Shown here: in pieces, positions 667 to 15,610 of the stretch
Numbering within the stretch: position 1 is the first letter of the stretch
How the letters are laid out: each line of letters begins with the position of its first letter
Assembly: GCF_053078305.1 (NCBI RefSeq)
Contig: NZ_CP166879.1
Reading direction: 5' to 3' (one strand)
DNA length: 64,000 nucleotides
The notes under the pieces: generated by a model
Databases searched by the model: none
What the model saw: only the letters and a program-made list of their open reading frames with translations
Told to the model about the DNA's origin: nothing
Program-made: the position numbers and the translations under genes

Positions 667-2265
667 TCATGAGCTCCCCGGATTGCACAACACAGCAGCT
701 CTGGCAGCATCAATGGCGATGAGCCCGGCAAGAAGATGTTCCATATCAGGCTGCAGACGCACCCTGTCACTTTCAGTTTTTGCGGACTTCATACGTAACA
801 GTTTCAGGCGGCGGGCTTTTACCTCAAATACCAGTTCAGGTTCCCATTGTGACAGGGTCAGCCGGGTTGCACGTTCATCCAGCTCCACAAGCAGATGCAG
901 GGCAAGGTCATTTTTTCCAGTCTGTTCGGCAACACGGGCCATCAACAGGCGCAGTAGCCAGTTGCTGCGGTCAGACTGAATACCGGGACGTGCCTGTAAC
1001 CAGCTTAAAGCGGCTTCTGTTCCTTCATTATCCGCAATCTGCAGGGCTTCCGGCTCAAGAGATAAAATGTCGTTATCTCCGGGAGCTGCCGTTATCGTTA
1101 CAGAAGGTTCTTCCGCCCAGCGTTCACCACACTCCATCACCTGCTGCTGTATCCAGCTCAGCGTCACGTCATCGGCAAACGGCATGCCGTCGTTAAAAGC
1201 CAGTGTCTCAAGCCCCGGCAGGCGCAGAAGCAATCCTTTCAGGTCATACTGAATAATGGCAGCATAATTTTCTTTTCCGGTCTGCAACAGCGCCTGATGA
1301 ATATACCACTGCAGGTCCAGCCACAGATGACTGGCTCCCCGGGCAAACATATCGTCACACTGTTCAAGCAGTGACAACCAGTTCTGCTGCAGATACAACC
1401 GTTTCAGTGACGCACGCCGGTCCGGCCCCGGTGGGGCAATACGGGTCCGTCCATCAGCAGATAACGGCGGTAACTGATGCAGCGTGTCATGCCGGACGCT
1501 TTTCATCAGTCGATGAGCCGCCAGCCAGCCCTCAGGCTGGTCACGCAGATATTTTGCCAGAACACGGGCCTGTGACAGCAGTTCCTGTCCGGAGGTGATG
1601 GCAGATAATGCCATGACGCTGCCGGATGTTACCGTCGGTGCCGGCGCGGCAGCCTCCTGAGGCACCACTGCATCAACACCACCGGCCTTCATCAGGCGAT
1701 TTTCAAGTGCCTGATATAACCCGTTCAGCACCGGGGCGGAAGCCTCATCCGTAAAGGTCTGTTCTGCCAGCCACAGCGCCCCGGCAATGCGCAGGGTATC
1801 CGCCTTCACCACCTCCGGATACAGAGACAGACTGTCCAGTATGCGGGCGCTGCATAACCACTCCAGCGCCGCCTTCCTGGCCCGTGACCGTTGTGGATGC
1901 AGGTGCTCTCCAAAACGCTGCAACAAACCGGTCAGCAGCTCCAGACCGTCGGCCAGACCTTTTTCACCATCCTGCCGCAGACGGGCCCAGATATACCAGG
2001 TCGCCACCCGGATATCTTTGGTTCTGGTGGTCAGTAATTTTTCTGCAAGCTGGCTGACAATTCCGGCATCGGCTCCGGAGAGTTTATTGACCTCTTCACG
2101 CATCTGCTGAAAATCATCATCGTACCCCGCATCATCACCTGCGGGATTATCTGGCGTCACGGGAGCAAGCCATTTATCCCACAGCGCAATACGCACCTGA
2201 GCCGGTTCAGCCACATCCCGGGGTGTCGTCTGGCATGCACTGAGGAGCGAATGAATGGAAGCCAT
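667..2265 (-). CDS. tssA: type VI secretion system protein TssA (ImpA N-terminal domain family)
   Basis: 532 aa ORF; N-terminal region resembles ImpA_N/TssA; ATGA start/stop overlap with tssM; sits in a T6SS cluster. Confidence 0.75.
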   Translation of the reverse strand: MASIHSLLSACQTTPRDVAEPAQVRIALWDKWLAPVTPDNPAGDDAGYDDDFQQMREEVNKLSGADAGIVSQLAEKLLTTRTKDIRVATWYIWARLRQDGEKGLADGLELLTGLLQRFGEHLHPQRSRARKAALEWLCSARILDSLSLYPEVVKADTLRIAGALWLAEQTFTDEASAPVLNGLYQALENRLMKAGGVDAVVPQEAAAPAPTVTSGSVMALSAITSGQELLSQARVLAKYLRDQPEGWLAAHRLMKSVRHDTLHQLPPLSADGRTRIAPPGPDRRASLKRLYLQQNWLSLLEQCDDMFARGASHLWLDLQWYIHQALLQTGKENYAAIIQYDLKGLLLRLPGLETLAFNDGMPFADDVTLSWIQQQVMECGERWAEEPSVTITAAPGDNDILSLEPEALQIADNEGTEAALSWLQARPGIQSDRSNWLLRLLMARVAEQTGKNDLALHLLVELDERATRLTLSQWEPELVFEVKARRLKLLRMKSAKTESDRVRLQPDMEHLLAGLIAIDAARAAVLCNPGSS

Positions 2266-5200
2266 CAGTCAGTCTCCTCCACGGAATCCCCGGCATCTTC
2301 GTCATTGCCTGTAAACGCTGACGTACCGGAGAGTTCGAAAACCATTTCCGGCAGAACAAAATTGCGGAGTTTCAGCAATACAAGCGGCCCTTCCCCCGCT
2401 TCAGTTCGCAGTGTGTAATTCAGCATACGACCGTCCTGCGCCTGCCAGCTCAGGCTCCAGCCACTGGCAACGCCCGGTGCGGCTTTCCGTCGGGCCATCT
2501 CAAGCAGACGTATCAGCCCCCAGCTTCCCGGCAGGTCTGCATACTGACGGGTACCGGCCTGAGTGCTTACCCAGCTTAAACTGGCGCCAGGTGCTTCCGT
2601 ATCAGCCGGCCAGGTAAATCGCTTCCATACCGGCATCTGATTAACATAAATCAGTTTCTGATTATCGGTTATCAGCGTCGTCTGCATCACACCGGCAGCA
2701 GTTCCCGGGCGCAGCTCAAAATGCAGCCCCGCGTTACCTGTGGTGAACGCCACATCCGCTATTTCACTCAGGGTATTGATGGCTTTCAGAAACGCAGGGT
2801 TGAATGTCAGCCCCCGGGTATTAATGGTATCCGGTACCCAGCGACTGCCTTCACTGTGCAACACACCACTCAGGTTATTCTGCAGGAAACGGGCAATACG
2901 TCCCGTGTCCGTATTCAGGTATTTTGCCAGCAGGGGAAGCGAAGCATCGCTGCTGACATTTTTAAACGGATAACGCCCGGAAAATGCATTATTCCAGCCA
3001 TCCACCACCGCAGTACGCCACCGGGCATTCAGACTTTCTGCCGCGGGCGTAAGAACCTGCTGCCACGCCTGCTCCATCGGGCGAACAAAGACCGTCTGTC
3101 CGAAGCCATACCACTCCTGTCCGAGTCCGGCAGCGGTCAGGCTACCGTAATCCCGGGTATCGGTTAAATCAACCGATTTCCCCTGCAATACTGTCTGTGC
3201 CAGCATCTGCATCATGGCCTGCGGGTCAGAAGAGCCGGCAATCTGTTGCAGACGCAGACGAACCTGTGTCACCCGGGTCAGATATGTCTGCAGATTCAGC
3301 ATATCCGCACTGTTGTTCTGATTATCCATCAGTGCAAGCACCGGCCCGAAAGTCGTCGCCAGAGGACCGTGAAGCCGGCTTTCCGGTACTGCCACTGGCT
3401 GTTTTTCCTGTGAAAGCAGGTTTCTGGCAGATTTAACCAGTGAATCAGTAACCGCTTCCCGGGGCTGGCCAGTACGCCCCTGAACCGCCAGCGTATTCAT
3501 CAGAGCAACCAGGGGGGACTGGCGCACATCAGCCATCAGCGTCAGTTGCTCTGTCACATCAGACAGCGTCTGAGCTTTACGCAGGTGCAGACTGTTCAGA
3601 AAATTCAGCCAGGCATTACCAAAATCAGCAAAATAGCGCGTTGTCAGGCGCTGTCTGAGTGCTTCCGGCGATACCGGTGACGGTGCCTTCTGCCTGCCAT
3701 CCGTCAGTACCCAGTCCATTTCTTCACGACGCTCATTAATCACGGTGTCTATCGCCGGCAATACGGCCTCTTCCCAGGCCTGGCGGGTGAACATACCGGG
3801 AACCACTTCATCCGTAAAAAAGAGGCGGGAGACATCAGTATCACCGGTCATATCCGTCAGACGCATATCCGCAAACTGATGTGCCACCCGTGCCAGCATT
3901 TTCTGATACAGCATGGCATCGCTGTTCTGTGTCCCCAGATGGCGAAGCAGCAGAGTTCTGCTCTGGCTGACCAGCTCTTCATCAGCCGTCAGCTTCCACT
4001 GAGGATGAGTAATAATCCCGGAGGCATAATACGCCAGCAACGTCGGGCCATTAGCCTGCCAGAAAACGGCACTCACACCGTCACGCTGTGGCCATTCCCG
4101 CATGAGCGTACGACTGAACCAGGCGGGCTCCATATGTTGCGGTTGCGCCAGCATCAGATACAGTCTGAGCTGGTCATATGCGGCTTTTGCCATTTTCCCC
4201 CGCTGCGGGCTGTCCGGAGGAAGACGAATAAATGTCCTGAGCTGCTGCTCAAGATGAGCAGCAGCGGCATCACGCAGTAAAAGATGTGCATTTTGTGCAT
4301 AAAGGGGCATTACGACCGCGAGCAGGTCTGCATTCTGATTCATACCGGCCCGCAGGTACCATGGCGCCCCGTGCTCCTCCCGGTACTGAAGGCGGGCCAG
4401 GGATTTCTGCAGATTCAGCAACGCCTGCAGACGTTCTGCAGGAGACAGTTGCTGGTTCTGAGCCGGACGAATCTGTTCCTGTACTTCAGCAACCAGACTC
4501 CGGTTTGCCAGAAAGGAAACCACCATTCCTGTTCCCTGAGCCATCATCAGTATGGCCGCCATAACGGCCAGACTTCTGCGCCAGTGATGACCTGTGCGGG
4601 AAGGCTGTAGCCGGACAGGTAATTGCTGCACTGTCTCCGGCAACGCCTCCCAGCGGTTATCCATTCGCCAGCGATGTCTGACACTTCGTTCACCGCCGAC
4701 AGTTGCCGGACTGAAAACAATACCCGCCAGCAACAACTGACGGTATGGACGGAGTAATACGGATAATGGCTCCACCACAGCATCAATATTTCGTCTGAAT
4801 CGCTCTGCCAGCGACAACAAAAAATAATACCGAGGGGCACAGCATATCTGCTGTATCCCCTGAGCAACAAGCCCGGGGAGCATGGCCTGTAGTTGTGCTT
4901 TCAGTTTGTCAGAACTACATTCTGCCGGCAGAAGGCATCCCACGGGCTGAGTAATACGCCCTCGCTCATCCGGACTCTCCTGCAGTGACCAGACATACAG
5001 CGGCAGACGCCAGCCAAGGCGCTCACAACATGAACTGACCGCACGGGAAACCCTGTCCAGGGCATCTTCTGTCAATGGTGCGGATAATGTTTCACTCAGT
5101 CCGGAAGTTACCCAGACAATGCCATCAACAGGCCGGTAACGCAGACGGCGTAACGCAGCCAGCCAGTCTGCGTTTTCCGGCTGCGAGGGGTCTCCTCCCC

Positions 5201-5654
5201 AGAGAAGCAATGTCCCCTGCTCTTCCTGCCAGAACTGTTCTGTCAGGCCCGGGGTCAGCAACTCAACCTCAGAGGCAGTACCTGTTATCAACAGAATGCG
5301 TATTTTACGTCCCCAGAATCTGCCATACTGGCGCCGCAGAGTATGACGAATATCCTGAACAGTAACATAGCGCGGTGGCGTCTGAGCCAGTCGCTCTTCA
5401 TCGTCAGGTAACCTTTGCTCCTTCCGGGCCCGACGTCGATATGTCAGTTCCTGAACATATTTTTTCATCACAGGCAGGTAACAGACAAAGAGCAACCCCA
5501 GACTCAGCAATATCAGCAGTAGTATTTGATCCCGGCGTGTTTCTGCCCCCAGAAATGCTCCATATCGGGTTATCAGCCACCAGAGCGCAGCCACACCAAT
5601 AAATACAATCCCCGGTCGTCCAAAGCGACCAGACAGACAGGCCAGTTTATTCAT
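2265..5654 (-). CDS. tssM: type VI secretion system membrane subunit TssM (IcmF family)
   Basis: 1129 aa ORF with N-terminal transmembrane segments and IcmF-like size and architecture; T6SS context. Confidence 0.85.
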   Translation of the reverse strand: MNKLACLSGRFGRPGIVFIGVAALWWLITRYGAFLGAETRRDQILLLILLSLGLLFVCYLPVMKKYVQELTYRRRARKEQRLPDDEERLAQTPPRYVTVQDIRHTLRRQYGRFWGRKIRILLITGTASEVELLTPGLTEQFWQEEQGTLLLWGGDPSQPENADWLAALRRLRYRPVDGIVWVTSGLSETLSAPLTEDALDRVSRAVSSCCERLGWRLPLYVWSLQESPDERGRITQPVGCLLPAECSSDKLKAQLQAMLPGLVAQGIQQICCAPRYYFLLSLAERFRRNIDAVVEPLSVLLRPYRQLLLAGIVFSPATVGGERSVRHRWRMDNRWEALPETVQQLPVRLQPSRTGHHWRRSLAVMAAILMMAQGTGMVVSFLANRSLVAEVQEQIRPAQNQQLSPAERLQALLNLQKSLARLQYREEHGAPWYLRAGMNQNADLLAVVMPLYAQNAHLLLRDAAAAHLEQQLRTFIRLPPDSPQRGKMAKAAYDQLRLYLMLAQPQHMEPAWFSRTLMREWPQRDGVSAVFWQANGPTLLAYYASGIITHPQWKLTADEELVSQSRTLLLRHLGTQNSDAMLYQKMLARVAHQFADMRLTDMTGDTDVSRLFFTDEVVPGMFTRQAWEEAVLPAIDTVINERREEMDWVLTDGRQKAPSPVSPEALRQRLTTRYFADFGNAWLNFLNSLHLRKAQTLSDVTEQLTLMADVRQSPLVALMNTLAVQGRTGQPREAVTDSLVKSARNLLSQEKQPVAVPESRLHGPLATTFGPVLALMDNQNNSADMLNLQTYLTRVTQVRLRLQQIAGSSDPQAMMQMLAQTVLQGKSVDLTDTRDYGSLTAAGLGQEWYGFGQTVFVRPMEQAWQQVLTPAAESLNARWRTAVVDGWNNAFSGRYPFKNVSSDASLPLLAKYLNTDTGRIARFLQNNLSGVLHSEGSRWVPDTINTRGLTFNPAFLKAINTLSEIADVAFTTGNAGLHFELRPGTAAGVMQTTLITDNQKLIYVNQMPVWKRFTWPADTEAPGASLSWVSTQAGTRQYADLPGSWGLIRLLEMARRKAAPGVASGWSLSWQAQDGRMLNYTLRTEAGEGPLVLLKLRNFVLPEMVFELSGTSAFTGNDEDAGDSVEETD

Positions 5655-6795
5655 TCTGGTTTCCTGATGTAACAGTACTGATAAAATGTTCTTCTCCGGA
5701 TGAGAATAAAGTCAGGAGAGAATCATTACCAAGACAGACCAGATCGGCTGCCAGAGCAGTAAGCAGCCACGGAGCAGCAGGTCCCGGGATACCGCACCAT
5801 TTTTCCAGTAACATACGTCCGGACGGTTCCCATCCGGCACCATACTGGTTTCCAATAGTCATCAGCGGTGCAGCAATCTTTTCCCAGTGATAACAGTCCC
5901 CCAGTACACGAGCGGTACGACAGGCAGCTGTCTGGGTTTCAAGGAAAAGTGTGAATTCATCATTAAACTTGTTGATATCCAGCGACATCGGGCGTAGCAG
6001 ACGGGCTGGATGCGGCAGGTTATATTTTTGCGCAACATCATCGCTGGTCAACAAAAGTGCAGCCAGTCCGTCAGAGTATGCATTCCCCCCATTTAGCTGT
6101 ATTACCAGCATCAAATCCACAGTCAGCACTGGTTGTTTCAGACGCTCATCAACCCACCCCATGGAAAAGTCGGGAGTAACCTCGATATTGTCAGGAACGA
6201 CGCGTTGGGGAAATAACGCTTCCCATGCTGAAACAAAAGCAGATCTGATTTCAGAATCAGGCTGATCGGTTATCAGCGTCACATTTACAGGGAGAGCGGC
6301 AGGTAACTGACAAAATTTATCCGTTATCTCCCTTAGCAAGACACGTAAAGAGGCTTCAACCTTATGCCCACTGTCAGAAAGATAATCTATTTTCTTTACA
6401 AGGCCGTACTGCAGAGGCAATTCATCACAAAGAGTAGCTACCGTTATTTTATCAGGCAAATAAACACAACTGGCAGTAATAACAAGATACCTTTCGGCCC
6501 AGGATTCCCACTGTTTCTGAGCATACTCCCCCTCTTTTTTAAGAAACAAATGTTCATCCATCTGGTTGCTCCACTGCCAGTGTCGCAGGCAAAACAGGAA
6601 AAACCAGCACCCCGAAGGAGTCAATGCAAGCCACCAGATACTGAAATCATTTAATACTTTCACATATCCTGATGCCCGGATAATAAACAACAGAGTACCA
6701 ACAACAGCCATAAATGCCCCTGTCATAAACCACAACATCATTGATGGTTTATGAGGTAATTCTGTTGATAAAGATTTTGTTCTGCTCCATCCCAT
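5647..6795 (-). CDS. T6SS-associated membrane protein, function unknown
   Basis: 382 aa ORF with two N-terminal hydrophobic helices; ATG start confirmed; 3 nt downstream of the PAAR stop and overlapping the tssM start. No family recognised. Confidence 0.55.
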   Translation of the reverse strand: MGWSRTKSLSTELPHKPSMMLWFMTGAFMAVVGTLLFIIRASGYVKVLNDFSIWWLALTPSGCWFFLFCLRHWQWSNQMDEHLFLKKEGEYAQKQWESWAERYLVITASCVYLPDKITVATLCDELPLQYGLVKKIDYLSDSGHKVEASLRVLLREITDKFCQLPAALPVNVTLITDQPDSEIRSAFVSAWEALFPQRVVPDNIEVTPDFSMGWVDERLKQPVLTVDLMLVIQLNGGNAYSDGLAALLLTSDDVAQKYNLPHPARLLRPMSLDINKFNDEFTLFLETQTAACRTARVLGDCYHWEKIAAPLMTIGNQYGAGWEPSGRMLLEKWCGIPGPAAPWLLTALAADLVCLGNDSLLTLFSSGEEHFISTVTSGNQNE

Positions 6796-6798
6796 GGT

Positions 6799-7065
6799 TT
6801 ATCCTATTGCACATTCCGGTGCACTGGATATAACCTTACACCCACACAGACATTTACATCCATCAATCACAACAGCTCTTCCATCAGATATCCATTCAGG
6901 AGAGCCCTCCACAATAGGATTGGTACCATGTCCGGAAACAGGGCAACTAACCATATCTCCAACAAGAGCTACTTTTTTACCATCGACAATCATGGTTGAA
7001 GATGCCGAAATAACTTTACCACCATGTGTGGTATTATCACCAAGCAATACAAAACCTTTAGACAT
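6799..7065 (-). CDS. PAAR domain protein (T6SS spike tip)
   Basis: 88 aa, Gly/Cys-rich with PAAR-like repeats (VISASSTMIVDGKKVALVGDMVSCPVSGHG...GCKCLCGCKV); located downstream of vgrG/effector. Confidence 0.8.
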   Translation of the reverse strand: MSKGFVLLGDNTTHGGKVISASSTMIVDGKKVALVGDMVSCPVSGHGTNPIVEGSPEWISDGRAVVIDGCKCLCGCKVISSAPECAIG

Positions 7066-7096
7066 AAAACTCTCAAAAATAAATTTTCACTTTGAG

Positions 7097-7774
7097 TCAC
7101 CAGTTACCGTAAGGATAAGTTTTATCTTTGATAAATTCCTTAATATCTTCATCATATCCATATGTGAAATCACTTTTAGTAACCCCCTTACACATATTCA
7201 TTTTATCACCCGATACTGTAGTAATTTTAGCATCCAACTGAGGTACCACCGGATTACCGCGATCTCCCAGCCAGACTCTTACCTTCCCTTCAGGTGCCAG
7301 ACCAATAATCATCGTTGAACGATAATAGGTTTCGTTCCAGCGGTTGTCTGTGTAAGGCGTAACCATCTGCTCCCAGGTTCCTTTTTTAAAAAAAATCAGA
7401 GTTTCATAACTCTTTTTATCAATTATCGAATCCCAGCAAAAACGCAACATCAGAGGTAATGCTTTCCCCTTGTTATAATACGACTCAGTCGCGCCCAGAT
7501 GCTCATTCCAGCGCCCTACACTGACCTGACTCGGTCTTGTGGTATCAAGATACTGATAAGTCGTCTTATAACCTTCCCCGTCCACCATCAATGCCTGAGT
7601 GGCCAGCGCAGGCAGAGCCTTTGGATAAATAAAGAGAAATTTCCATTCATCATAGGGTAATTTTTTATAACCCCATTCAGTCTTATCCGAATCAGCATAC
7701 TGTGAGCTAACAGAATTACACCCAGTTAACAATGCCAATAATGGTGCGATAAAAATGATTTTATCTCTGGTCAT
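7097..7774 (-). CDS. tli1: lipoprotein, putative Tli1-type immunity protein for the adjacent lipase effector
   Basis: 225 aa; signal peptide with lipobox LLTGC; immediately downstream of the DUF2235 effector, the usual effector-immunity order. Confidence 0.55.
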   Translation of the reverse strand: MTRDKIIFIAPLLALLTGCNSVSSQYADSDKTEWGYKKLPYDEWKFLFIYPKALPALATQALMVDGEGYKTTYQYLDTTRPSQVSVGRWNEHLGATESYYNKGKALPLMLRFCWDSIIDKKSYETLIFFKKGTWEQMVTPYTDNRWNETYYRSTMIIGLAPEGKVRVWLGDRGNPVVPQLDAKITTVSGDKMNMCKGVTKSDFTYGYDEDIKEFIKDKTYPYGNW

Positions 7775-7793
7775 GTATTGTCATCCTGTAGCG

Positions 7794-9476
7794 TTAAACA
7801 CCAGACATCATAACTTTAGTATTTTTTACTGCGTTATCATTCAATCGCTGCTGATCATCCATGTACCATACAGAACGAATCCAGCGATCATTTGGTTTAT
7901 TCGGAAAAACGAACGCCTTATTACCTTTAGGACCAAAGCGATGGATAAAAATCTCTCCCGTTGTAGGATCCACCCATAAATTACCATCAGACTCAATATT
8001 CCAGTTGGCAGAACAATGGGTGTATTTTCCGATAATATACAACTCTTCCTCAGTAAAAGCCTGAGGCTCTTGCCCCAAACGTACCGCTTTTCCCTGAGCA
8101 ATGGCTTTATCAACAAAAGGAATTAATTCAGGAGATAAATTCATATCTGGATTTTTGGGGTCAATTGGAGCAAACAATACCCCTGCTTCCTGAGCAGCAT
8201 CCAGCATCACACGCAGGCAAACATTAGCCCAGTCATTAGGTACTGCCATACGCTCAAAAAATACTGCGGCTCCCACCTGCTTTTGTATCACGCCAGCCCG
8301 ACGTTGATTGCTGTTGTTCACACCTACGGAACGAATTTTGGTGGTTAGTTTTCCATGAGGCAAAATATGTTTTAAGGCTGGCAGAGTCATCAACATTTTT
8401 CTGGCTTGCTCTGCATTACGGTATACTCGCGTATCTGTTTCTCTGGTATCGTCACTGACAATTTCAAATGCCGGGCAACTCAGAAACAGACTTTCATTTT
8501 CCTGCAGAGGTGAACCTACCGGATTGTAACCACCTCCAATATCTGAATGCGCCCCTGGTAAAGCCAGTTCGGGCCACATACCTTTAATACTGTTCAGGCT
8601 GAAATTATATCGGTATTCATTCATTGCAGTAATCTGGAAAACTTTCTTCGCGATGGAAGGACGCAATTCCAGCTTTACTCCCGGGTTGCTACGTCCATTA
8701 ATATCGAAGAAATTACTGATTCCACCAATAGCTGCGACAGTATCAAAAAGCCCCAGAAAACGGACTTCACCCGAAGGTTTACCATCATAAAAATCGCCTC
8801 TGAGCCCTTTAGCAATAGCTCTGGCTATAGCAGGATCCTGTTCCATAACCCGATTAGCAAAGTGCCTTGCCGCCGCTGCTCCCCGGCTAAAACCAAAAAC
8901 ATCAAACTGGATTTTTGCGATACAAAAATCAGGATTTAAATTGAACCCCATAAATTCTGATAACGCTTGGGTGATTCGTTCCATTGCCTCGTCGGTTTTC
9001 GTCACCACACCTTCAAATATATCCAGAATACTGGTGCCTAATCCCATGCCAATGACTGAATCTGCTTCACCAGCCGCAGTCCCTATCCCGGAAATGTAAG
9101 TCTGAATTTGTGCTTCAACCTGACTTTCCAACAAAGTCTGATCTGCTACGTAAAGTGAATTTAGCCAGTGGATATTGGAATAATATCCACGATAACTGCC
9201 ATTCGAGATACTGTTCTTGTTAATTTCTTCAAGAAAGTCCTCACAGCTTTGTGCATCTTTTTGATTTACCCCCTGTCTGGCTGCACTACACTCATTAAAT
9301 TTCATCAGACGAGATGCTGTATTCTCCCGATTGTTTCCGGTACCATCGAAAAATATACCAATGGTTAAAGTCACACCCCGCGCCGGTTTTTTCTTTGCAA
9401 CAACAACTTTCCAGTCATTATGAATACTGGTTTTATGGGTGGCATCTGTTACATCATATCCCTGATATTTTGTCAT
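7794..9476 (-). CDS. tle1: T6SS phospholipase effector, Tle1 family (DUF2235 alpha/beta hydrolase)
   Basis: 560 aa; GxSxG motif GFSRG; directly downstream of vgrG with ATGA overlap; matches the vgrG-tle1-tli1 layout described for EAEC sci-1. Confidence 0.7.
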   Translation of the reverse strand: MTKYQGYDVTDATHKTSIHNDWKVVVAKKKPARGVTLTIGIFFDGTGNNRENTASRLMKFNECSAARQGVNQKDAQSCEDFLEEINKNSISNGSYRGYYSNIHWLNSLYVADQTLLESQVEAQIQTYISGIGTAAGEADSVIGMGLGTSILDIFEGVVTKTDEAMERITQALSEFMGFNLNPDFCIAKIQFDVFGFSRGAAAARHFANRVMEQDPAIARAIAKGLRGDFYDGKPSGEVRFLGLFDTVAAIGGISNFFDINGRSNPGVKLELRPSIAKKVFQITAMNEYRYNFSLNSIKGMWPELALPGAHSDIGGGYNPVGSPLQENESLFLSCPAFEIVSDDTRETDTRVYRNAEQARKMLMTLPALKHILPHGKLTTKIRSVGVNNSNQRRAGVIQKQVGAAVFFERMAVPNDWANVCLRVMLDAAQEAGVLFAPIDPKNPDMNLSPELIPFVDKAIAQGKAVRLGQEPQAFTEEELYIIGKYTHCSANWNIESDGNLWVDPTTGEIFIHRFGPKGNKAFVFPNKPNDRWIRSVWYMDDQQRLNDNAVKNTKVMMSGV

Positions 9477-11992
9477 TCTGTTTCTCCATGAATTTTTACC
9501 TTCCCAAACTCAACTTTTACTACTGACGGAATGGAGGTGTTGACTGGCGCTGTTTTACCATTTTCATCGGTGATCCCCTGTAGAATATCACCTTCAGCCG
9601 TTGTTAATCGATAAGGCGTCGAAGGTTGCGGCACTCCCGCTTCATCGGTAAGAATAAAACCGCCACCAAACCCTCGCGGCATTTCAACAGACGCAATATC
9701 AAGACTTGTTGGTCCCATCTTCTGCATATTCGTGCTTTTTAACAGGATCTGTCCCGGGCATCCCAGCTCAATATTTCCACCGCTTAGTTTGATATAAGCT
9801 CCACCACATGCCAGTATCAGTTCCTGATTAGCAGAAACAGTCACTTTGCCCTCAGAACTTTGAATATCAAGATTCTGTTGGGAACTCATTGACAAATCGT
9901 CACTTTGAGCCTGAATATTTACCCGCCCTTTTGCTGCTAACAGTTGCATCCCCTGGTTTCTGCTCAACAGGCTAACAGCACCTTCTGCTACAACTGTAAA
10001 TGACTGCCCGGCACTAATATCAGTGTTATCTCCCGACATTATGCCCACGCTTTCACTACCCGAAGCAATTCGTAACGCCCGTGCACTAACCATGCCAATC
10101 CCATCAGGAGCATGCAACAGCATTCCCGGCGCAGTGAGATCTGTTAGCGATGAATTCAACCGTTGCTGACAACTTATATCTCCCTGAGTAGCATTTGCAG
10201 CAGTTGCGGCCTTCGCCATACTTCGGGCCAGAGATAATGCCAGCTCCAGTTGGCGGATAGCTTCATTCATATCCAGCATCTTTCCTTGTGCCTGAGGCTG
10301 CATATCTGCACTGATAAATATTCCTTTTCCTCCCCGGATACTTATCCAGTCATCAGTCCTCAGCTCAGCGCCTTCTCCCCTGAGTTTCCGGGAGGCATTA
10401 ACGTTATGACCAAGATTAAGTTGTGTCTTACCGCCAAACTCGGTACTGATCTTGATATGCTCCTCACCGCGTTTGTCCTCCATCCGCAACTTGTTATTTG
10501 CCGGCGTACGGATAACATTGCGCGTACCGTTCTTATCGGTAACGTGATCAACATGACGTGAATCATGCAGGGCATGCGCGATATAGGGGCGATCCGGATC
10601 ACCTTCCTCAAAGGCAATGGCCACTTCCGTTCCCTGAATCAGCGGAAAATGAAAACCATAAGCATCACCACTGTAGGGTTTGGCCAGACGTACCGGCATG
10701 CTTTCCTGTCCCGGATTTTTATCATCACGGTCAGCATCAAATTTCACCCGGTACATACCTGATGCATCCTGCCAGGCGTAGATATCCCCTTCTTTTGCAC
10801 TGGTCACACGGGCCGTCATGGTACCGGTAACTTTCGGACGCGGCAGTAAAGGAGGACGCCAGCAGATAACTTCACTGTAAGGAACGCCCTTCAGTACAAC
10901 CTGCAGGGCATCCTTGCGACTTGCAGAAAAACCGACACAGGTAAGCAACACCGGATTGCGCAGCAGCGCAGGCAACGTCGGCGGAAGACTGTCGGTGATA
11001 GTCAGAACCTGAGCAGGTGCCAGCGTGGCGTCTGTACTGTTGCCGGTTATCCGCACCTGCTCCGCCAGATAACGTTCATGACCAAGGCGGGCATAAAAAT
11101 TGGCCGTCTCCGGCACCGGGTCGATTTTATCCCCCCGTTCCAGATGACGGAAATGGTAGTGGTACACCTCACCATAGTTAATTCCGTCACCATCACCATG
11201 CGTCATGTCTGCCGGGGCGGACTGCAACAGATATTGTGCTTCACGATGGTTATAAGCCTTTGTGGTGACACTGGCCTCTGCCACATTGTGCGTCACATTC
11301 AGCCCCCACACTGAATCCGCTCTGTTATCATTCATTCCGGACGGACTGTTTATCGCCAGCGTCTTATCAAACGTCAGCGCAGCCTGGCTGTCACCAAAAT
11401 GCACTACTTCCGTCTGCGTGTCCGGTTGCAGGGTGAAAAAATAAAAAATCCCCACTTCAGCCAGCAAACGCTGAATAAATTGCAGGTCACTTTCCTGATA
11501 CTGGTTAATTTGTTCACGCTTCGGATACGTTTTTTTGAGACGGAACTCAAACTCCCAGCCTTTCAGGCCGTGCTCCTGGAGAACCTCTGTCACCACCTCC
11601 GGCACCGATTTGTTAACGAAAAATCGGTGAGAACGATGCTGCCTGTCCAGTAGTTTAATAAATGGTTCCAGTATCACCTGGTATTTTGCCTGGTCGGCGG
11701 AGCCCGATATACGACGAAAATCTGTAATGACACCATGTACTACTTTCTGGCTCACCTGCTCCTTAAGCCCTCCCGTACCCATTGTAAATGTGGCTGATTT
11801 ACGCAGCAGCAGCCCGGCATCCAGGTCGTTGTCAGTACTGGTAAAATTGATGATGTAATAATAGGTCTGACTCATCTCCTCCCTGCCGCTGAAATGCTCA
11901 ACATCCAGTGGTGACGGGCAGGAGGGAATAATTAAATGGTAACGATTCAGGGAAGCAGAGATAGTTTTTGAAAGTGTATCTGTCAGACTCAT
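9473..11992 (-). CDS. vgrG: T6SS spike protein VgrG (TssI) with C-terminal extension
   Basis: 839 aa; VgrG-like N-terminal gp27/gp5 architecture; C-terminal tail beyond the spike core; start codon overlaps next gene. Confidence 0.9.
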   Translation of the reverse strand: MSLTDTLSKTISASLNRYHLIIPSCPSPLDVEHFSGREEMSQTYYYIINFTSTDNDLDAGLLLRKSATFTMGTGGLKEQVSQKVVHGVITDFRRISGSADQAKYQVILEPFIKLLDRQHRSHRFFVNKSVPEVVTEVLQEHGLKGWEFEFRLKKTYPKREQINQYQESDLQFIQRLLAEVGIFYFFTLQPDTQTEVVHFGDSQAALTFDKTLAINSPSGMNDNRADSVWGLNVTHNVAEASVTTKAYNHREAQYLLQSAPADMTHGDGDGINYGEVYHYHFRHLERGDKIDPVPETANFYARLGHERYLAEQVRITGNSTDATLAPAQVLTITDSLPPTLPALLRNPVLLTCVGFSASRKDALQVVLKGVPYSEVICWRPPLLPRPKVTGTMTARVTSAKEGDIYAWQDASGMYRVKFDADRDDKNPGQESMPVRLAKPYSGDAYGFHFPLIQGTEVAIAFEEGDPDRPYIAHALHDSRHVDHVTDKNGTRNVIRTPANNKLRMEDKRGEEHIKISTEFGGKTQLNLGHNVNASRKLRGEGAELRTDDWISIRGGKGIFISADMQPQAQGKMLDMNEAIRQLELALSLARSMAKAATAANATQGDISCQQRLNSSLTDLTAPGMLLHAPDGIGMVSARALRIASGSESVGIMSGDNTDISAGQSFTVVAEGAVSLLSRNQGMQLLAAKGRVNIQAQSDDLSMSSQQNLDIQSSEGKVTVSANQELILACGGAYIKLSGGNIELGCPGQILLKSTNMQKMGPTSLDIASVEMPRGFGGGFILTDEAGVPQPSTPYRLTTAEGDILQGITDENGKTAPVNTSIPSVVKVEFGKVKIHGETE

Positions 11993-12070: not shown

Positions 12071-12298
12071 TTACTGATAATCATCCCATTCATCGTAAAT
12101 ATATGCATATGCAAATCGATACATCAGATAACCGACAAAAAATAACGCAACAGAGAGCCCTCCCCACAGATATTTAAATTCAGCAGATGAGAGAAAAAAG
12201 AACCAGACTGTAAATACAATACCCGACGCACCTAACCCCATACCTGCGCCACGGATAAATCGGGAAAGCATTATAAGTAATGTTCTTTTTATCTTCAT
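12071..12298 (-). CDS. small membrane protein, unknown function
   Basis: 75 aa from the ATG at 12298, which overlaps the upstream gene stop (ATGA); two predicted hydrophobic helices. Confidence 0.4.
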   Translation of the reverse strand: MKIKRTLLIMLSRFIRGAGMGLGASGIVFTVWFFFLSSAEFKYLWGGLSVALFFVGYLMYRFAYAYIYDEWDDYQ

Positions 12299-12936
12299 AA
12301 ACCACCGAAAAAATATTCGCATATCCGGTCAAACTCAGCCGAATTTCGGTCTGCGACAATACAGGCTCGTTCAAACGGGCGCACAATATCTTCAACAAGA
12401 AAGTACAAAAGATCCAAATCCCCCTGAGCTTTCAGCTTATCATGCAACACCGGATTTCTGTCTTTCAGAAAACGGGATGTGTAAATCGCACGCGATGTCT
12501 CTGCGCCAACAGATAATAACAACCCGGCAAAACTCCCTGCAAAAAAAGCAGCCAGCCCTCTGGATACCAGAACCTCTCCCAGTTTAACCCCGGTCAATTC
12601 AGCAAATGCCATTCTACCTGCCAGATCTCCTGAAACGTTCTTCACAATGGAGCCTGTTTTTTCCATATTGATCCGGGATACAAAGTCTTCAAGACAAATA
12701 CTGATAATTTTCCCAATAATATCACGGCTGAAAATGCCTTTTTCTACCAGTCTGGCCATTCTGAATTTGTCATTCTGGTTTTCCCGCCTATGCCCGGTAT
12801 CTATAAAATCATATCCCATATAACCGAGACTGACTGGCAAAGATATGAGTCCCTTCCCGACGGCCCCCAGAAACCCATCCCCATTAATATTTACGGCCTC
12901 CAGCATATCCCGGGCAATTTCTTTAGCACTGTCCAT
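12295..12936 (-). CDS. hypothetical protein between clpV and vgrG
   Basis: 213 aa from the ATG at 12936 preceded by AGGAAA; 14-nt overlap with the clpV 3' end; no family recognised. Confidence 0.45.
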   Translation of the reverse strand: MDSAKEIARDMLEAVNINGDGFLGAVGKGLISLPVSLGYMGYDFIDTGHRRENQNDKFRMARLVEKGIFSRDIIGKIISICLEDFVSRINMEKTGSIVKNVSGDLAGRMAFAELTGVKLGEVLVSRGLAAFFAGSFAGLLLSVGAETSRAIYTSRFLKDRNPVLHDKLKAQGDLDLLYFLVEDIVRPFERACIVADRNSAEFDRICEYFFGGL

Positions 12937-15610
12937 ATATGCTTTCCTGCGGATAATCGCTATTGATTCCATCAAACGCTATCACAATACCATCCTCATC
13001 ATTCCACGTCAGAGACAGGTACGTCGGATGCTGTCTGGCAGCAAGATAGCTGAGCAACTGCCGGCTCAGTACCGGCAGCAGTTGCTGGTTCAGCAGACTC
13101 TCCACATTCCGGGCGCCCGTATCCGGCAGCAGGCAGGCGGATGTCAGGGCATCGTACACACGTTCATCAACCGATGTGCTCAGCCCATAATGGCAGTGCA
13201 GGCGTTCGCAGACCTGTGCAAGCTTCATCTCCACAATGGTGCGCATGGCAGACTGCGTCAGCGGACGGTAAATCACGGTCCGGAAACGGGCAAGCAGTGC
13301 TGGCTGGAAGTGGTCGCGCAGCAGTGGACGGATAAGCTCATGCAGCTCCGATTCCGTTGTCTCCGGCTTTTCGCTAAGTTGCTGCATCAGAAGGTCACTG
13401 CCCAGATTGGAGGTCATCAGAATGACCGTATTACGGAAGTCAATTTCACGCCCCTCACCGTCGCGCATAAAGCCCCGGTCAAACACCTGGTAGAACAGAT
13501 TCAGCACATCCCGGTGGGCCTTTTCCACTTCATCCAGCAGCACCACGCTGTAAGGGCGTTTACGCACAGCCTCCGTCAGAATACCGCCCTGACCGTATCC
13601 CACGTACCCGGGCGGTGACCCCTTAAGCTGGGAAACCGTATGGGGCTCCTGGTATTCCGACAGATTGATGGTAATCAGTGATTTTTCGCCGCCGTACATC
13701 ACGTCTGCCAGCGCCAGTGCCGTTTCGGTTTTTCCCACACCACTGGGACCGACCAGCAGGAACACCCCCTGGGGGCCGTTACCGGATGTCAGACCCGTTT
13801 TCGCCGCACGCAGACGCTGCGCAATGGATTCCAGTGCCACGTCCTGTCCGACCACCCGTCTGCCGATATCCTTTTCCAGATGCAGCAGTTCCGTCTGTTC
13901 GTCCTTCATCAGGGAAGATAACGGCACCCCGGTCCGGTCCGCGACCACACCGGCAACGGTGCGTACGTCAACATCCACACTGAGCAGGGGCTGATTCTGC
14001 TGAATGTCGTGCAGTGCCTGCTGCAGGTGATGTGTCTCACTCTGGCGGGAAATATCGCTGCGGCTTTCAAGTAACTCACCGGTGAGTTCGCACTCCCGGG
14101 CGTACTGCTGCTCCAGGTCATCACGTGCTGTCATCAGCTCGTTCTCTTCCTGCTCAATGGCAGACAGACGTTCGCCGTGATTCTGATGACCAACGGCAAT
14201 ATCTTCCAGCAGTGCCTGTTTTTCCATACCGAGGGAAGCGAGCTGTGAACGGATACGGGTCAGCTGTTCCGGCACCGTGTCGAGGCTCATACGCACACGG
14301 GCAGCAGCAGTATCGAGCAGGTCAACAGCCTTGTCCGGTAACTGGCGTTCTGTCAGATAACGGCGCGACAGCGTGACGGCAGCACGTACCGCCTCATCGG
14401 TGATATGCACGTTATGATGTTCCGCATAACGGGATTTCAGGGAGCGCAGCATCAGACAGGCCGTCTCATCATCCGGCTCGTCCACTCTGACCATCTGAAA
14501 ACGCCGCTCCAGAGCCGCGTCACGTTCCAGGTATTGTTTGTACTCAGACCAGGTGGTGGCGGCAATGGTACGCAGTTCACCCCGCGCCAGCGCAGGCTTC
14601 AGCAGGTTGGCCGCATCCGCGCCGCCGGCCTGATTACCGGCCCCGATAAGGGTATGGGCTTCATCTATAAACAACAGTACAGGAGCCGGTGACTGCTGCA
14701 CGGCATCAATCACGTTTTTCAGGCGCTGTTCAAATTCACCCTTCACGCCGGCACCGGCCTGCAGCAGGCCGAGGTCAAGGGTGCGCAGGGTGACGGGTCT
14801 GAGTGATTCCGGTACGTTACCTTCCGCAATACGCAGGGCGAGCCCTTCCACCAGAGCCGTTTTCCCCACACCAGGGTCCCCCACCAGAATCGGGTTGTTC
14901 TTGCGGCGGCGGGAGAGAATATCCACCATCTGACGGATTTCCGTATCGCGTCCCGATACCGGGTCAATTTTCCCCTCTCTCGCGCTGGCCGTGATGTCCC
15001 GGGTGAATTTATCCAGAGCACTCTGTAACACAGGCGGCAGGTCACCTGACGGTATACCCGCCGTATCCGCACCGACGGGACGCCCGATAAAGGTCACATT
15101 GTCTCCCTGAGGCAGCACAGGCTCTGCATCCTGTAATCTCTCCGGACACTCATCAGACTGCGCATCCAGCAGCGGGGACAGACGCTGCAACTGGCTATGA
15201 CTCAGTGTCAGCAGCGGCCACAGCCCGTCACAGCGAACCAGGTGCGGATTTTCCGTCAGGGCACCCAGCAGATGCACGCTGCGGATATGTTCTTCTCCCT
15301 GTAATGAGGCCACCATCCAGGCCTGTTTCAGCAGGGCATTCAGGGACGGCGCAAGCTGCGGGCAGCTGCGTACGCTACGGGGCTGGTTATCCAGCCAGCC
15401 GAGCAGCGACTGCCATATCGCGTCCATATCCCAGTCATAACGCCGGCCCAGCACGGTAAGGTCTCCTTCGCCCTGCTCCAGCAGTTTCAGTAACCAGTGC
15501 TCCGGGGTGATTTCCGCATGGGCCCGGGTCTGGCAAAGGGAGGCTGCGCCTTCCAGTGCACGGGCACAGTAATGATTAAGACGGCGTAACAGAGCTGCCG
15601 GATTTTCCAT
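12923..15610 (-). CDS. clpV: T6SS AAA+ ATPase ClpV (TssH)
   Basis: Two Walker A motifs ([16 protein letters not shown]), ClpB-like N-domain and size; track start at 15619 is GTG, the in-frame ATG at 15610 is preferred. Confidence 0.9.

What the first reader, a model, noticed from the sequence alone, without database searches (positions are those of the whole stretch)
5647..6795. Unassigned 382-aa membrane protein tightly packed between the PAAR gene and tssM
It starts 3 nt after the PAAR stop and overlaps tssM, so it is clearly co-expressed. It has two N-terminal TM helices and a large C-terminal domain, with no match to core Tss components as I recall them. It could be an accessory (Tag) protein or a membrane-anchored immunity factor.
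Basis: inference. Interest (0 to 1): 0.4.

Follow-up and report, generated by a model that had tools for sequence, protein, structure and literature searches.

The report
Membrane-anchored thiolase-fold T6SS accessory protein
The gene is real and is the unstudied EC042_4538 gene of the model E. coli type VI secretion cluster: it encodes an inner-membrane protein whose cytoplasmic part looks like an inactive fatty-acid/polyketide condensing enzyme and most resembles a known secretion adaptor (Tla3), so it is probably a machine-building helper, not an immunity protein.

Summary
A 382-aa ORF lies at 5647-6795 on the minus strand, 3 nt after the PAAR stop and overlapping tssM by 8 nt. It has an N-terminal two-helix membrane hairpin.

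It is the ortholog of EC042_4538 of the EAEC Sci-1 T6SS (98.4% nt identity). RefSeq calls it "hypothetical" or "KPHS_23130 family T6SS system protein". No searchable paper names its E. coli locus tag; the Klebsiella tag occurs once, in a gene list.

The family is small: 226 representatives among 1.84 billion proteins. In 79 Enterobacterales and Pseudomonas loci the order PAAR-X-TssM is almost invariant, with a 2-4 nt spacer in 76/80 and an overlap with tssM in 68/73. This holds whichever effector is encoded upstream.

Best reading: a lineage-specific, membrane-tethered, Tla3-like assembly factor at the cytoplasmic face of TssJLM. It probably couples the PAAR-VgrG spike and baseplate to TssM. 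That mechanism is inferred. The immunity, effector and core-component readings are not supported.

The parts
5647..6795 (-). CDS of the target protein 'X' (382 aa plus stop). It is the ortholog of E. coli 042 EC042_4538 / EC042_RS24240 / WP_001403985.1.
   Evidence: ORF list and translation; 98.4% nt identity to strain 042, in the same position between PAAR and TssM.
6739..6795 (-). N-terminal tail, residues 1-19, predicted cytoplasmic. W3 is conserved in 96% of 113 sequences.
   Evidence: Mean K+R count is 2.4 in the tail against 0.8 in the inter-helix loop, and W3 is 96% conserved. The topology is inferred from the positive-inside rule.
6571..6738 (-). Transmembrane hairpin: TM1 at about residues 20-42, a short loop at 43-52 with an HASG motif, and TM2 at about residues 53-75.
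   Evidence: Hydropathy; AlphaFold helices 19-42 and 53-100 with pLDDT of 90 or more; W22, P60 and R71 are at least 82% conserved; TM1 is as conserved as the globular domain.
6496..6570 (-). Stalk: the cytoplasmic continuation of the TM2 helix, residues 76-100, with near-invariant W96 and W99.
   Evidence: One continuous helix 53-100 in both models; W96 is 96% and W99 is 99% conserved.
5650..6495 (-). Ketosynthase/thiolase-fold domain, residues 101-382, with a variable insert at about 114-145. No catalytic Cys/His is conserved.
6796..6798 (-). 3-nt spacer between the PAAR stop and the X start (translational coupling).
   Evidence: Sequence; the spacer is 3 nt in 67 and 2-4 nt in 76 of 80 loci.
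5647..5654 (-). 8-nt overlap (ATGAATAA) between the X stop and the tssM start.
   Evidence: Sequence; the X stop overlaps an in-frame TssM start codon in 68 of 73 loci.
6799..7065 (-). PAAR spike-tip protein (88 aa, no toxin extension), the upstream partner gene.
   Evidence: Pfam PAAR_motif E 8e-24; equals EC042_4537 (PMC10715212).
2265..5654 (-). TssM (1129 aa), the downstream partner gene. Its cytoplasmic domain lacks a Walker A motif.
   Evidence: Pfam IcmF-related, IcmF_helical and IcmF_C; TIGR03348 matches only from model position 427 onward; 0 of 48 X-linked TssM proteins have a Walker A motif.
7097..11992 (-). Upstream spike/cargo module: VgrG (9473-11992), Tle1 phospholipase (7794-9476) and Tli1 lipoprotein immunity (7097-7774).
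   Evidence: Pfam; RefSeq annotation of the orthologous E. coli loci.
667..2265 (-). TssA, which follows TssM. It is part of the conserved PAAR-X-TssM-TssA-TssF-TssG-TssJ block.
   Evidence: Pfam and NCBIfam; synteny.

Best explanation
X is the EC042_4538-type accessory subunit of Sci-1-type (EAEC-like) type VI secretion systems. It inserts in the inner membrane through an N-in/C-in helical hairpin. A roughly 25-residue stalk helix then holds a catalytically inactive ketosynthase/thiolase-fold domain in the cytoplasm. That domain is structurally closest to the T6SS adaptor Tla3 (DUF2875). X is made by translational coupling between the PAAR tip protein and TssM. I propose it acts as a membrane-tethered, cargo-independent adaptor or docking factor at the cytoplasmic face of the TssJLM membrane complex. 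In this model the hairpin associates with the TssM/TssL/TagL transmembrane region, and the pseudo-enzyme domain binds the PAAR-capped VgrG spike or baseplate, helping to recruit or orient it under the membrane complex. Shown here: the gene, its topology elements, its fold, the loss of catalytic residues, the synteny and coupling, and the independence from cargo. Inferred: the cytoplasmic orientation, the binding partners and the docking role.

For: Pseudo-enzyme: no Cys or His column reaches 50% in 113 family members.

Genomic linkage: PAAR lies 2-4 nt upstream in 76/80 loci. An in-frame TssM start overlaps the X stop in 68/73 loci. Counting adjacency, 75/79 loci have PAAR next to X and 72/77 informative loci have TssM next to X, across Enterobacterales and Pseudomonas. 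More distant members keep the same arrangement.

Cargo independence: Tle1/Tli1, a PLD-type effector or no vgrG/cargo gene at all can precede PAAR-X. X proteins that are 89% identical follow different cargo.

Link to the spike: intact homologs follow PAAR in orphan VgrG islands that lack TssM (L002, L038, L039).

The anchor is constrained: TM1 and the stalk are at least as conserved as the globular domain.

Precedents: Tla3 binds VgrG2b and its cargo in the cytoplasm (PMC6560169). A thiolase-like protein, PA0098, precedes the PAAR toxin in the VgrG1b island (PMC7970981 and PMC11872809). In EAEC, PAAR is needed for baseplate (TssK) localisation but not for TssM foci (PMC10715212).
Confidence: 0.4

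Rival explanations
1. X is a TssM-dedicated partner. It would be an inner-membrane chaperone, stabiliser or regulator of membrane-complex biogenesis that contacts only TssM (or TssL/TagL) and has no role with the spike. It might compensate for the degenerate NTPase domain of this TssM lineage.
For: The X stop overlaps the TssM start in 68/73 loci. TssM is adjacent in 72/77 informative loci, including loci with no PAAR next to X (L010, L016, L062, L089). All 48 X-linked TssM proteins lack a Walker A motif. The hairpin-plus-cytoplasmic-domain layout parallels the TssM N-terminus, and TM1 and the stalk are well conserved. Some orphan PAAR-X islands are decayed clusters.
Against: PAAR adjacency is equally strict: 75/79 loci, with a 3-nt spacer in 67/80. 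Intact, diverged homologs persist next to PAAR without TssM (L002, L038, L039). The closest structural relative is a VgrG-binding adaptor. Loss of Walker A is a lineage trait and not a tested dependency.
Confidence: 0.27
2. X is a cargo-specific adaptor or chaperone in the strict Tla3 sense. It would load one effector, here Tle1, onto VgrG/PAAR.
For: The fold is closest to Tla3, which loads Tle3 onto VgrG2b. X lies at the end of the VgrG-Tle1-Tli1-PAAR module in the window. A variable insert (residues 114-145) could confer specificity.
Against: The same X subtype (89% identity) follows different cargo. X is present where no vgrG or cargo gene lies between clpV and PAAR (L005) and where the cargo is a PLD-type effector (L006). 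Tle1 is present in only a minority of the 79 loci. From my own knowledge of the literature, EAEC Tle1 binds the VgrG C-terminus directly without an adaptor.
Confidence: 0.08
3. X is an active membrane-bound acyl-transfer or condensing enzyme of the thiolase superfamily that modifies a lipid or a T6SS component.
Against: No conserved Cys-His-His/Asn set exists; the only polar residues that are at least 80% conserved are R71, Q233, S241, R268 and Q288. No Pfam ketoacyl-synthase or thiolase model matches even at E of 10 or less. The domain is about 280 aa, against roughly 400 aa for active ketosynthases.
Confidence: 0.05
4. X is an immunity protein or a secreted membrane-targeting effector associated with PAAR.
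For: Transmembrane helices are common in immunity proteins. X evolves faster than the neighbouring core genes: about 44% identity, against 59-76% for TssM, TssA, VgrG and PAAR over the same loci. It sits last in some VgrG-cargo-PAAR islands.
Against: The slot and a single copy are conserved regardless of cargo. The adjacent PAAR has no toxin domain. No candidate cognate toxin or immunity gene is adjacent, since tssM follows with an overlap. The family is confined almost entirely to one T6SS lineage and diverges along with it.
Confidence: 0.04

Closest known systems
Tla3 (PA0259, DUF2875) of the Pseudomonas aeruginosa H2-T6SS; crystal structure 8yz3
   Different: Tla3 is soluble, has two DUF2875 Pfam domains, and is specific for one cargo (Tle3) and one VgrG. 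It is dispensable for Hcp2b secretion. X has a membrane hairpin and stalk and no detectable DUF2875 sequence signal. It is cargo-independent and is fixed between PAAR and tssM inside the core cluster.
PA0098-type 'thiolase-like' proteins of VgrG1b-type islands (VgrG / OB-fold / DUF2169 / thiolase-like / PAAR-toxin)
   Same: A thiolase-like protein is encoded immediately beside a PAAR-type tip protein in a VgrG module (PMC7970981 and PMC11872809).
   Different: PA0098 precedes the tip gene instead of following it, accompanies a toxin-bearing tip and a DUF2169 chaperone, and is not described as membrane-anchored. No sequence or structure comparison with PA0098 could be made here.
DUF2169 chaperones of PIPY (DUF4150) spike tips
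   Same: They show that an accessory protein genetically locked to the tip protein can be required for spike assembly and for whole-machine activity (PMC11883445).
   Different: The fold is unrelated and the proteins are soluble. They serve hydrophobic PIPY tips, and the same paper states that canonical PAAR binds VgrG unaided.
TagL and TagA, the known lineage-specific accessory proteins of the EAEC Sci-1 T6SS
   Same: They are encoded in the same cluster type, are restricted to this lineage, and are membrane-associated helpers of assembly. Their functions are from my own knowledge of the field.
   Different: TagL carries an OmpA-type peptidoglycan-binding domain, and TagA is an ImpA_N/VasL-type protein that caps the distal sheath end. 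X shares no domain with either.
Ketosynthases and chain-length factors of the thiolase superfamily
   Different: There is no sequence similarity and no conserved Cys/His. X is shorter, membrane-anchored and embedded in a secretion-system operon.

Membership tests
DUF2875 / Tla3 adaptor family (Pfam PF11394) | Sequence match to the DUF2875 profile | tested here: not met
   There was no Pfam hit for the target or for 48 diverse family members, even at E of 10 or less. A family profile did not retrieve 8yz3 from PDB sequences at E of 10 or less.
DUF2875 / Tla3 adaptor family (Pfam PF11394) | Tla3-like three-dimensional fold | tested here: met
DUF2875 / Tla3 adaptor family (Pfam PF11394) | Soluble cytoplasmic protein dedicated to one neighbouring cargo effector | tested here: not met
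   X has a two-helix membrane hairpin. Its subtype does not follow the cargo type.
DUF2875 / Tla3 adaptor family (Pfam PF11394) | Physical binding to VgrG and to the effector | not testable with these tools
   This needs two-hybrid, pull-down or complex prediction, and none was available.
Thiolase superfamily condensing enzymes (ketosynthase / thiolase) | Five-layer alpha-beta-alpha-beta-alpha thiolase fold | tested here: met
Thiolase superfamily condensing enzymes (ketosynthase / thiolase) | Conserved catalytic Cys plus His/His or His/Asn | tested here: not met
   No Cys or His column reaches 50% in the 113-sequence alignment; the best are H40 at 47% (in the transmembrane loop) and C110 at 38%.
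Thiolase superfamily condensing enzymes (ketosynthase / thiolase) | Match to the Pfam ketoacyl-synthase, thiolase or ACP_syn_III profiles | tested here: not met
   None at E of 10 or less in 48 members.
TssM (core membrane-complex subunit), as an N-terminal paralog | Homology to the TssM transmembrane hairpin and cytoplasmic domain, or to the IcmF domains | tested here: not met
   No IcmF Pfam domains. BLASTP gave E of 0.37 or worse. hhalign of the X family against 48 TssM N-termini gave probability 1.5%. The weak hmmsearch hits are confined to the hydrophobic hairpin.
Known Tag accessory families (TagF/DUF2094, TagJ/ImpE, TagH/FHA, TagL/OmpA, TagA/ImpA_N-VasL) and adaptor families (DUF4123, DUF1795, DUF2169) | Match to the family profile | tested here: not met
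   No Pfam or NCBIfam family at E of 0.01 or less, and none in 48 members.
T6SS immunity proteins | Encoded next to, and co-varying with, a cognate toxin; protects against it | tested here: not met
   The slot is conserved irrespective of cargo and the adjacent PAAR has no toxin domain. Protection itself is not testable here.
'KPHS_23130 family T6SS system protein' (RefSeq placeholder name) / EC042_4538 orthologs | Orthology: high identity and the same genomic slot | tested here: met
   98.4% nt identity to E. coli 042 EC042_RS24240, between PAAR (EC042_4537) and TssM (EC042_4539). One RefSeq genome carries the KPHS_23130 name on the ortholog. NCBIfam release 20 itself gave no HMM hit. The name carries no functional information.

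The most novel reading that the evidence does not exclude
X is an unrecognised structural subunit of Sci-1-type T6SSs. It would be a membrane-embedded pseudo-ketosynthase that acts as the inner-membrane 'receptor' for the PAAR-tipped spike. This would physically explain why PAAR is required for baseplate docking onto TssJLM in EAEC. It would also show that the thiolase fold has been recruited repeatedly (Tla3, PA0098, X) as a spike-binding module.
Probability: 0.25. Interest if true: 0.7.

Novelty: new variant of a known kind. Interest (0 to 1): 0.5.

Why it matters
The EAEC Sci-1 system is one of the most closely studied T6SS models, yet I found no searchable paper that names EC042_4538, the gene between PAAR and tssM. 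If it is a membrane-tethered Tla3-like docking factor, it would add a component at the least understood interface of the machine, where the spike and baseplate meet the cytoplasmic face of TssJLM. It could account for the PAAR-dependent baseplate recruitment reported in 2023. It would also extend the thiolase-fold adaptor idea from cargo loading to machine assembly. The prediction can be tested directly with strains and reporters that already exist (TssB-, TssK- and TssM-sfGFP). If the deletion has no phenotype, the gene is a dispensable lineage-specific passenger and of little interest.

Tried and rejected
1. Paralogy with the TssM N-terminus. A diverse X profile gave weak hmmsearch hits to TssM residues 17-91 (E 0.001-0.09). 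hhalign against 48 TssM N-termini gave probability 1.5%, and BLASTP gave nothing. I rejected this as hydrophobic-hairpin composition.

2. Sequence homology to DUF2875/Tla3. Pfam scans at E of 10 or less and a profile search of PDB sequences were negative. I could not obtain a DUF2875 sequence for a profile-profile test. A bulk Pfam scan of 35 representative neighbouring ORFs showed no DUF2875 among the 25 families listed out of 58.

3. Genome scan with the very diverse alignment A2.

4. The AFDB50 fold library was unavailable.

5. Literature. 'EC042_4538' occurs in 0 papers. 'KPHS_23130' occurs in 1 paper, only within a virulence-gene list. Phrase searches for genes between PAAR and tssM found nothing relevant. 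The 2025 EAEC evolution preprint and the 2023 PAAR paper do not mention the gene.

6. Cargo-specific adaptor, immunity or effector readings. I rejected these on comparative grounds.

7. 'X travels with PAAR' as a strong argument. I downgraded it after finding that two orphan islands are decayed clusters.

8. Promoter and terminator scan of the PAAR-X-tssM junctions. It found nothing above the shuffle expectation.

9. One protein (P0257) had no contig on record, and one locus had no DNA available.
Full report
OBSERVATION

The window carries a 382-codon ORF on the minus strand at 5647..6795. It begins 3 nt after the TAA stop of an 88-aa PAAR gene (6799..7065), in the context GGATAAACCATG. Its own stop lies inside the start of tssM (2265..5654), read as ATGAATAA, an 8-nt overlap. 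Pfam and NCBIfam identify the neighbours on the same strand as VgrG, Tle1, Tli1 (a DUF2931 lipoprotein), PAAR, the target, TssM and TssA. Upstream lie TssB, TssC, TssK, TssL, TagL (OmpA), Hcp and ClpV. Hydropathy shows two hydrophobic stretches at about residues 20-42 and 52-72.

WHICH GENE IT IS

The DNA is 98.4-99% identical to a chromosomal gene in 57 of 5,426 complete E. coli genomes. These include enteroaggregative strain 042, where it is EC042_RS24240 (WP_001403985.1), flanked by the PAAR gene and the 'ImcF-related' TssM. PAAR is EC042_4537 (PMC10715212) and TssM is EC042_4539 (PMC4374921), so the target is the ortholog of EC042_4538 of the Sci-1 T6SS.

The matching TssM gene occurs in 69 genomes, 53 of them at full length, so the two genes co-occur. 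RefSeq calls the protein 'hypothetical protein', 'type VI secretion protein' or, in one recent genome, 'KPHS_23130 family T6SS system protein'. That last name is a placeholder derived from a Klebsiella locus tag that appears in virulence-gene lists. No paper in the searchable library mentions EC042_4538. The papers on the neighbouring genes do not discuss it.

FAMILY AND DISTRIBUTION

The protein matches no Pfam, NCBIfam or PADLOC model and no PDB sequence. A word-indexed search found 213 clusters, all about 380-390 aa and without Pfam domains, from Escherichia, Enterobacter, Klebsiella, Cronobacter, Yersinia, Pantoea, Erwinia, Salmonella and others. An exhaustive profile search of 1.84 billion representatives found only 226 proteins at E of 0.001 or less. 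The full-length hits among the 150 listed are 330-480 aa (most 370-480) and are matched along most of their length; the rest are fragments. This is a small, compact family. Scanning 48 diverse members against Pfam gave only spurious transmembrane matches, even at E of 10 or less.

STRUCTURE

A first AlphaFold model built from 33 sequences was of moderate quality (pLDDT 70). A second model built from 113 sequences is of high confidence (pLDDT 94.9, pTM 0.88). Both show the same architecture:
- helix 19-42 (TM1);
- a short loop;
- one long helix 53-100 (TM2 continuing as a stalk of about 25 residues);
- a compact alpha/beta domain, residues 101-378.

The domain is therefore a ketosynthase-type thiolase fold. 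Tla3 is its nearest solved relative, but only by a small margin. In the 113-sequence alignment no Cys or His column reaches 50%. The residues that are at least 80% conserved are W3, W22, P60, R71, W96, W99, A100, P114, L228, Q233, S241, L248, R268, P269, M270, Q288, G335, G338, W343 and L361. The Cys-His-His/Asn catalytic set of condensing enzymes is thus absent, and the domain is best read as a pseudo-enzyme scaffold.

Charge counts (K+R 2.4 in the N-tail, 0.8 in the inter-helix loop, with R71 and a basic juxtamembrane segment after TM2) favour an N-in/C-in hairpin with the domain in the cytoplasm. This orientation is inferred and was not demonstrated. TM1 and the stalk are at least as conserved as the globular domain. 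The insert at 114-145 and the loop are the most variable parts.

GENOMIC CONTEXT ACROSS GENOMES

A scan of one genome per species returned 79 loci from Enterobacterales and the Pseudomonas fluorescens/putida groups.
- By tblastn with the window's proteins, PAAR lies immediately upstream in 75 of 79 loci.
- TssM lies immediately downstream in 72 of 77 informative loci, followed by TssA.
- The PAAR-stop to X-start spacer is exactly 3 nt in 67 loci and 2-4 nt in 76 of 80.
- The X stop overlaps an in-frame TssM start codon in 68 of 73 loci.

The spacing and overlap argue for translational coupling of the three genes. More distant family members show the same PAAR-X-TssM-TssA-TssF-TssG-TssJ block.

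The genes between vgrG and PAAR differ among loci. They are Tle1/Tli1 in the window and a minority of loci, a PLD-type effector in L006, and none in L005, where clpV abuts PAAR. X proteins that are 89% identical (L041 and L044) follow different cargo. X is thus independent of effector type.

X diverges faster than its neighbours. Across typical Enterobacterales loci it is about 44% identical to the window protein, against about 59% for TssM, 61% for TssA, 64% for VgrG and 75% for PAAR. Among close E. coli alleles pN/pS is 0.3-0.6.

EXCEPTIONS

Five loci have PAAR-X, or cargo-X, without TssM: L038, L039, L055, L058 and L065. A distant 472-aa homolog with an extra C-terminal transmembrane pair ends an orphan VgrG-?-?-PAAR-X island in L002. 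At least two of these are decayed clusters. In L055, X is followed by a TssF C-terminal fragment. In L058, X has an internal stop.

Conversely, L010, L016, L062 and L089 keep X-TssM without an adjacent PAAR. One full-length relative (P0205) stands alone between an aas-like gene and glnD, with no T6SS genes nearby. Linkage to PAAR and linkage to TssM are therefore about equally strong, and the family has at least one branch outside T6SS loci.

INTERPRETATION

The data establish X as a lineage-specific accessory gene of Sci-1-type T6SSs. They exclude membership of any core Tss family or of the TagF/TagJ-type families. The immunity and effector readings fail on several counts:
- the slot is conserved whatever the cargo;
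- there is only a single copy;
- the adjacent PAAR is bare;
- there is no adjacent cognate gene.

The strict Tla3-like, cargo-specific adaptor reading fails on cargo independence.

Two readings remain.

(i) X is a membrane-tethered docking factor or adaptor that links the PAAR-capped spike and baseplate to the cytoplasmic face of TssJLM. Several observations support this. The fold resembles a VgrG-binding adaptor. Thiolase-like proteins recur beside PAAR-type tips (PA0098). Intact homologs persist beside PAAR without TssM. The stalk would place the domain some tens of angstroms below the membrane, where the spike tip arrives. In EAEC, PAAR is needed for TssK localisation but not for TssM foci.

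(ii) X is a partner of TssM only. This is supported by the gene overlap, by the X-TssM loci that lack PAAR, and by the uniform loss of the Walker A motif in all 48 X-linked TssM proteins.

The two readings are not exclusive. I rank (i) first at about 0.4 and (ii) at about 0.27. No interaction could be tested here.

COMPARISON WITH KNOWN SYSTEMS, AND NOVELTY

X works most plausibly like a Tla3-type adaptor, but it is not a DUF2875 family member by sequence. It is also membrane-anchored, cargo-independent and embedded in the core operon. It is not an active thiolase-superfamily enzyme. As a lineage-specific helper it parallels TagL and TagA of the same cluster, but it shares no domain with them.

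The family is catalogued under placeholder names, and I found no functional study. The fold assignment and the near-invariant PAAR-X-TssM coupling are the new information. I classify it as a new variant of a known kind: T6SS-associated thiolase-fold accessory proteins. Interest is moderate (0.5). This is an untouched gene in a flagship model system with a clear, cheap experimental test, but the proposed mechanism rests on inference.

Noticed in passing
window 12071-12975 (minus strand): Two further ORFs lie between clpV and vgrG: 226 aa at 12295-12975 and 83 aa at 12071-12322. Neither has a Pfam match. By position they are the equivalents of EC042_4531/4532, and RefSeq also annotates them as hypothetical.
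   Followed up: partly
window 27040-30409 (minus strand): A C39-peptidase ABC exporter (706 aa) and a HlyD-type membrane-fusion protein (424 aa) lie a few kb from the T6SS cluster. Together they form a bacteriocin/microcin-type export pair.
   Followed up: no
window 2265-5654 (TssM) and the TssM genes of 47 related loci: All 48 TssM proteins encoded directly after an X homolog lack a Walker A motif. The P-loop position reads LLITGTASEVE or similar. TIGR03348 matches the window TssM only from model position 427 onward.
   Followed up: partly
P0003 (E. coli, 379 aa) compared with window 5647-6795: A second E. coli allele is about 99% identical from residue 166 to the end. Over the hairpin, stalk and variable insert (residues 1-165) it is only about half identical. 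This indicates a recombination breakpoint inside the gene, perhaps from swapping of the upstream spike/cargo module.
   Followed up: no
L055:5706-6365 and L058:4331-5479: Some 'orphan' PAAR-X islands are decayed clusters. In Rosenbergiella (L055), X is followed by a TssF C-terminal fragment. In Pantoea sp. 1.19 (L058), X carries an internal stop codon.
   Followed up: partly
L007:8001-9176 and L008:4020-5195 (protein P0205): A full-length family member (391 aa, with the same hairpin plus domain) stands alone between an aas-like acyltransferase/acyl-ACP synthetase gene and glnD, with no T6SS genes nearby. This hints at a non-T6SS branch or origin of the family.
   Followed up: partly
L002:8001-9419 (protein P0223, 472 aa): This variant has an additional pair of C-terminal transmembrane helices. 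It is encoded last in an orphan VgrG / 123 aa / 338 aa / PAAR / X island. The 123-aa and 338-aa proteins have no Pfam match.
   Followed up: partly
window 7066-7096 compared with L001:19022-19699 and L091:3022-3699: The window has a single tli1 immunity gene, whereas E. coli 042 and 2013C-3033 carry two tandem copies before PAAR.
   Followed up: no
L041, L044, L045, L056, L087, L090 (upstream of PAAR): Several related clusters have an extra ORF of about 165-197 aa with no recorded Pfam match between the immunity gene and PAAR. It is absent from the window.
   Followed up: no
L009:16-2116 and L090:1144-2253: DUF6708 proteins lie just upstream of PAAR-X or X in two distant loci. Their role (effector or immunity) was not examined.
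   Followed up: no
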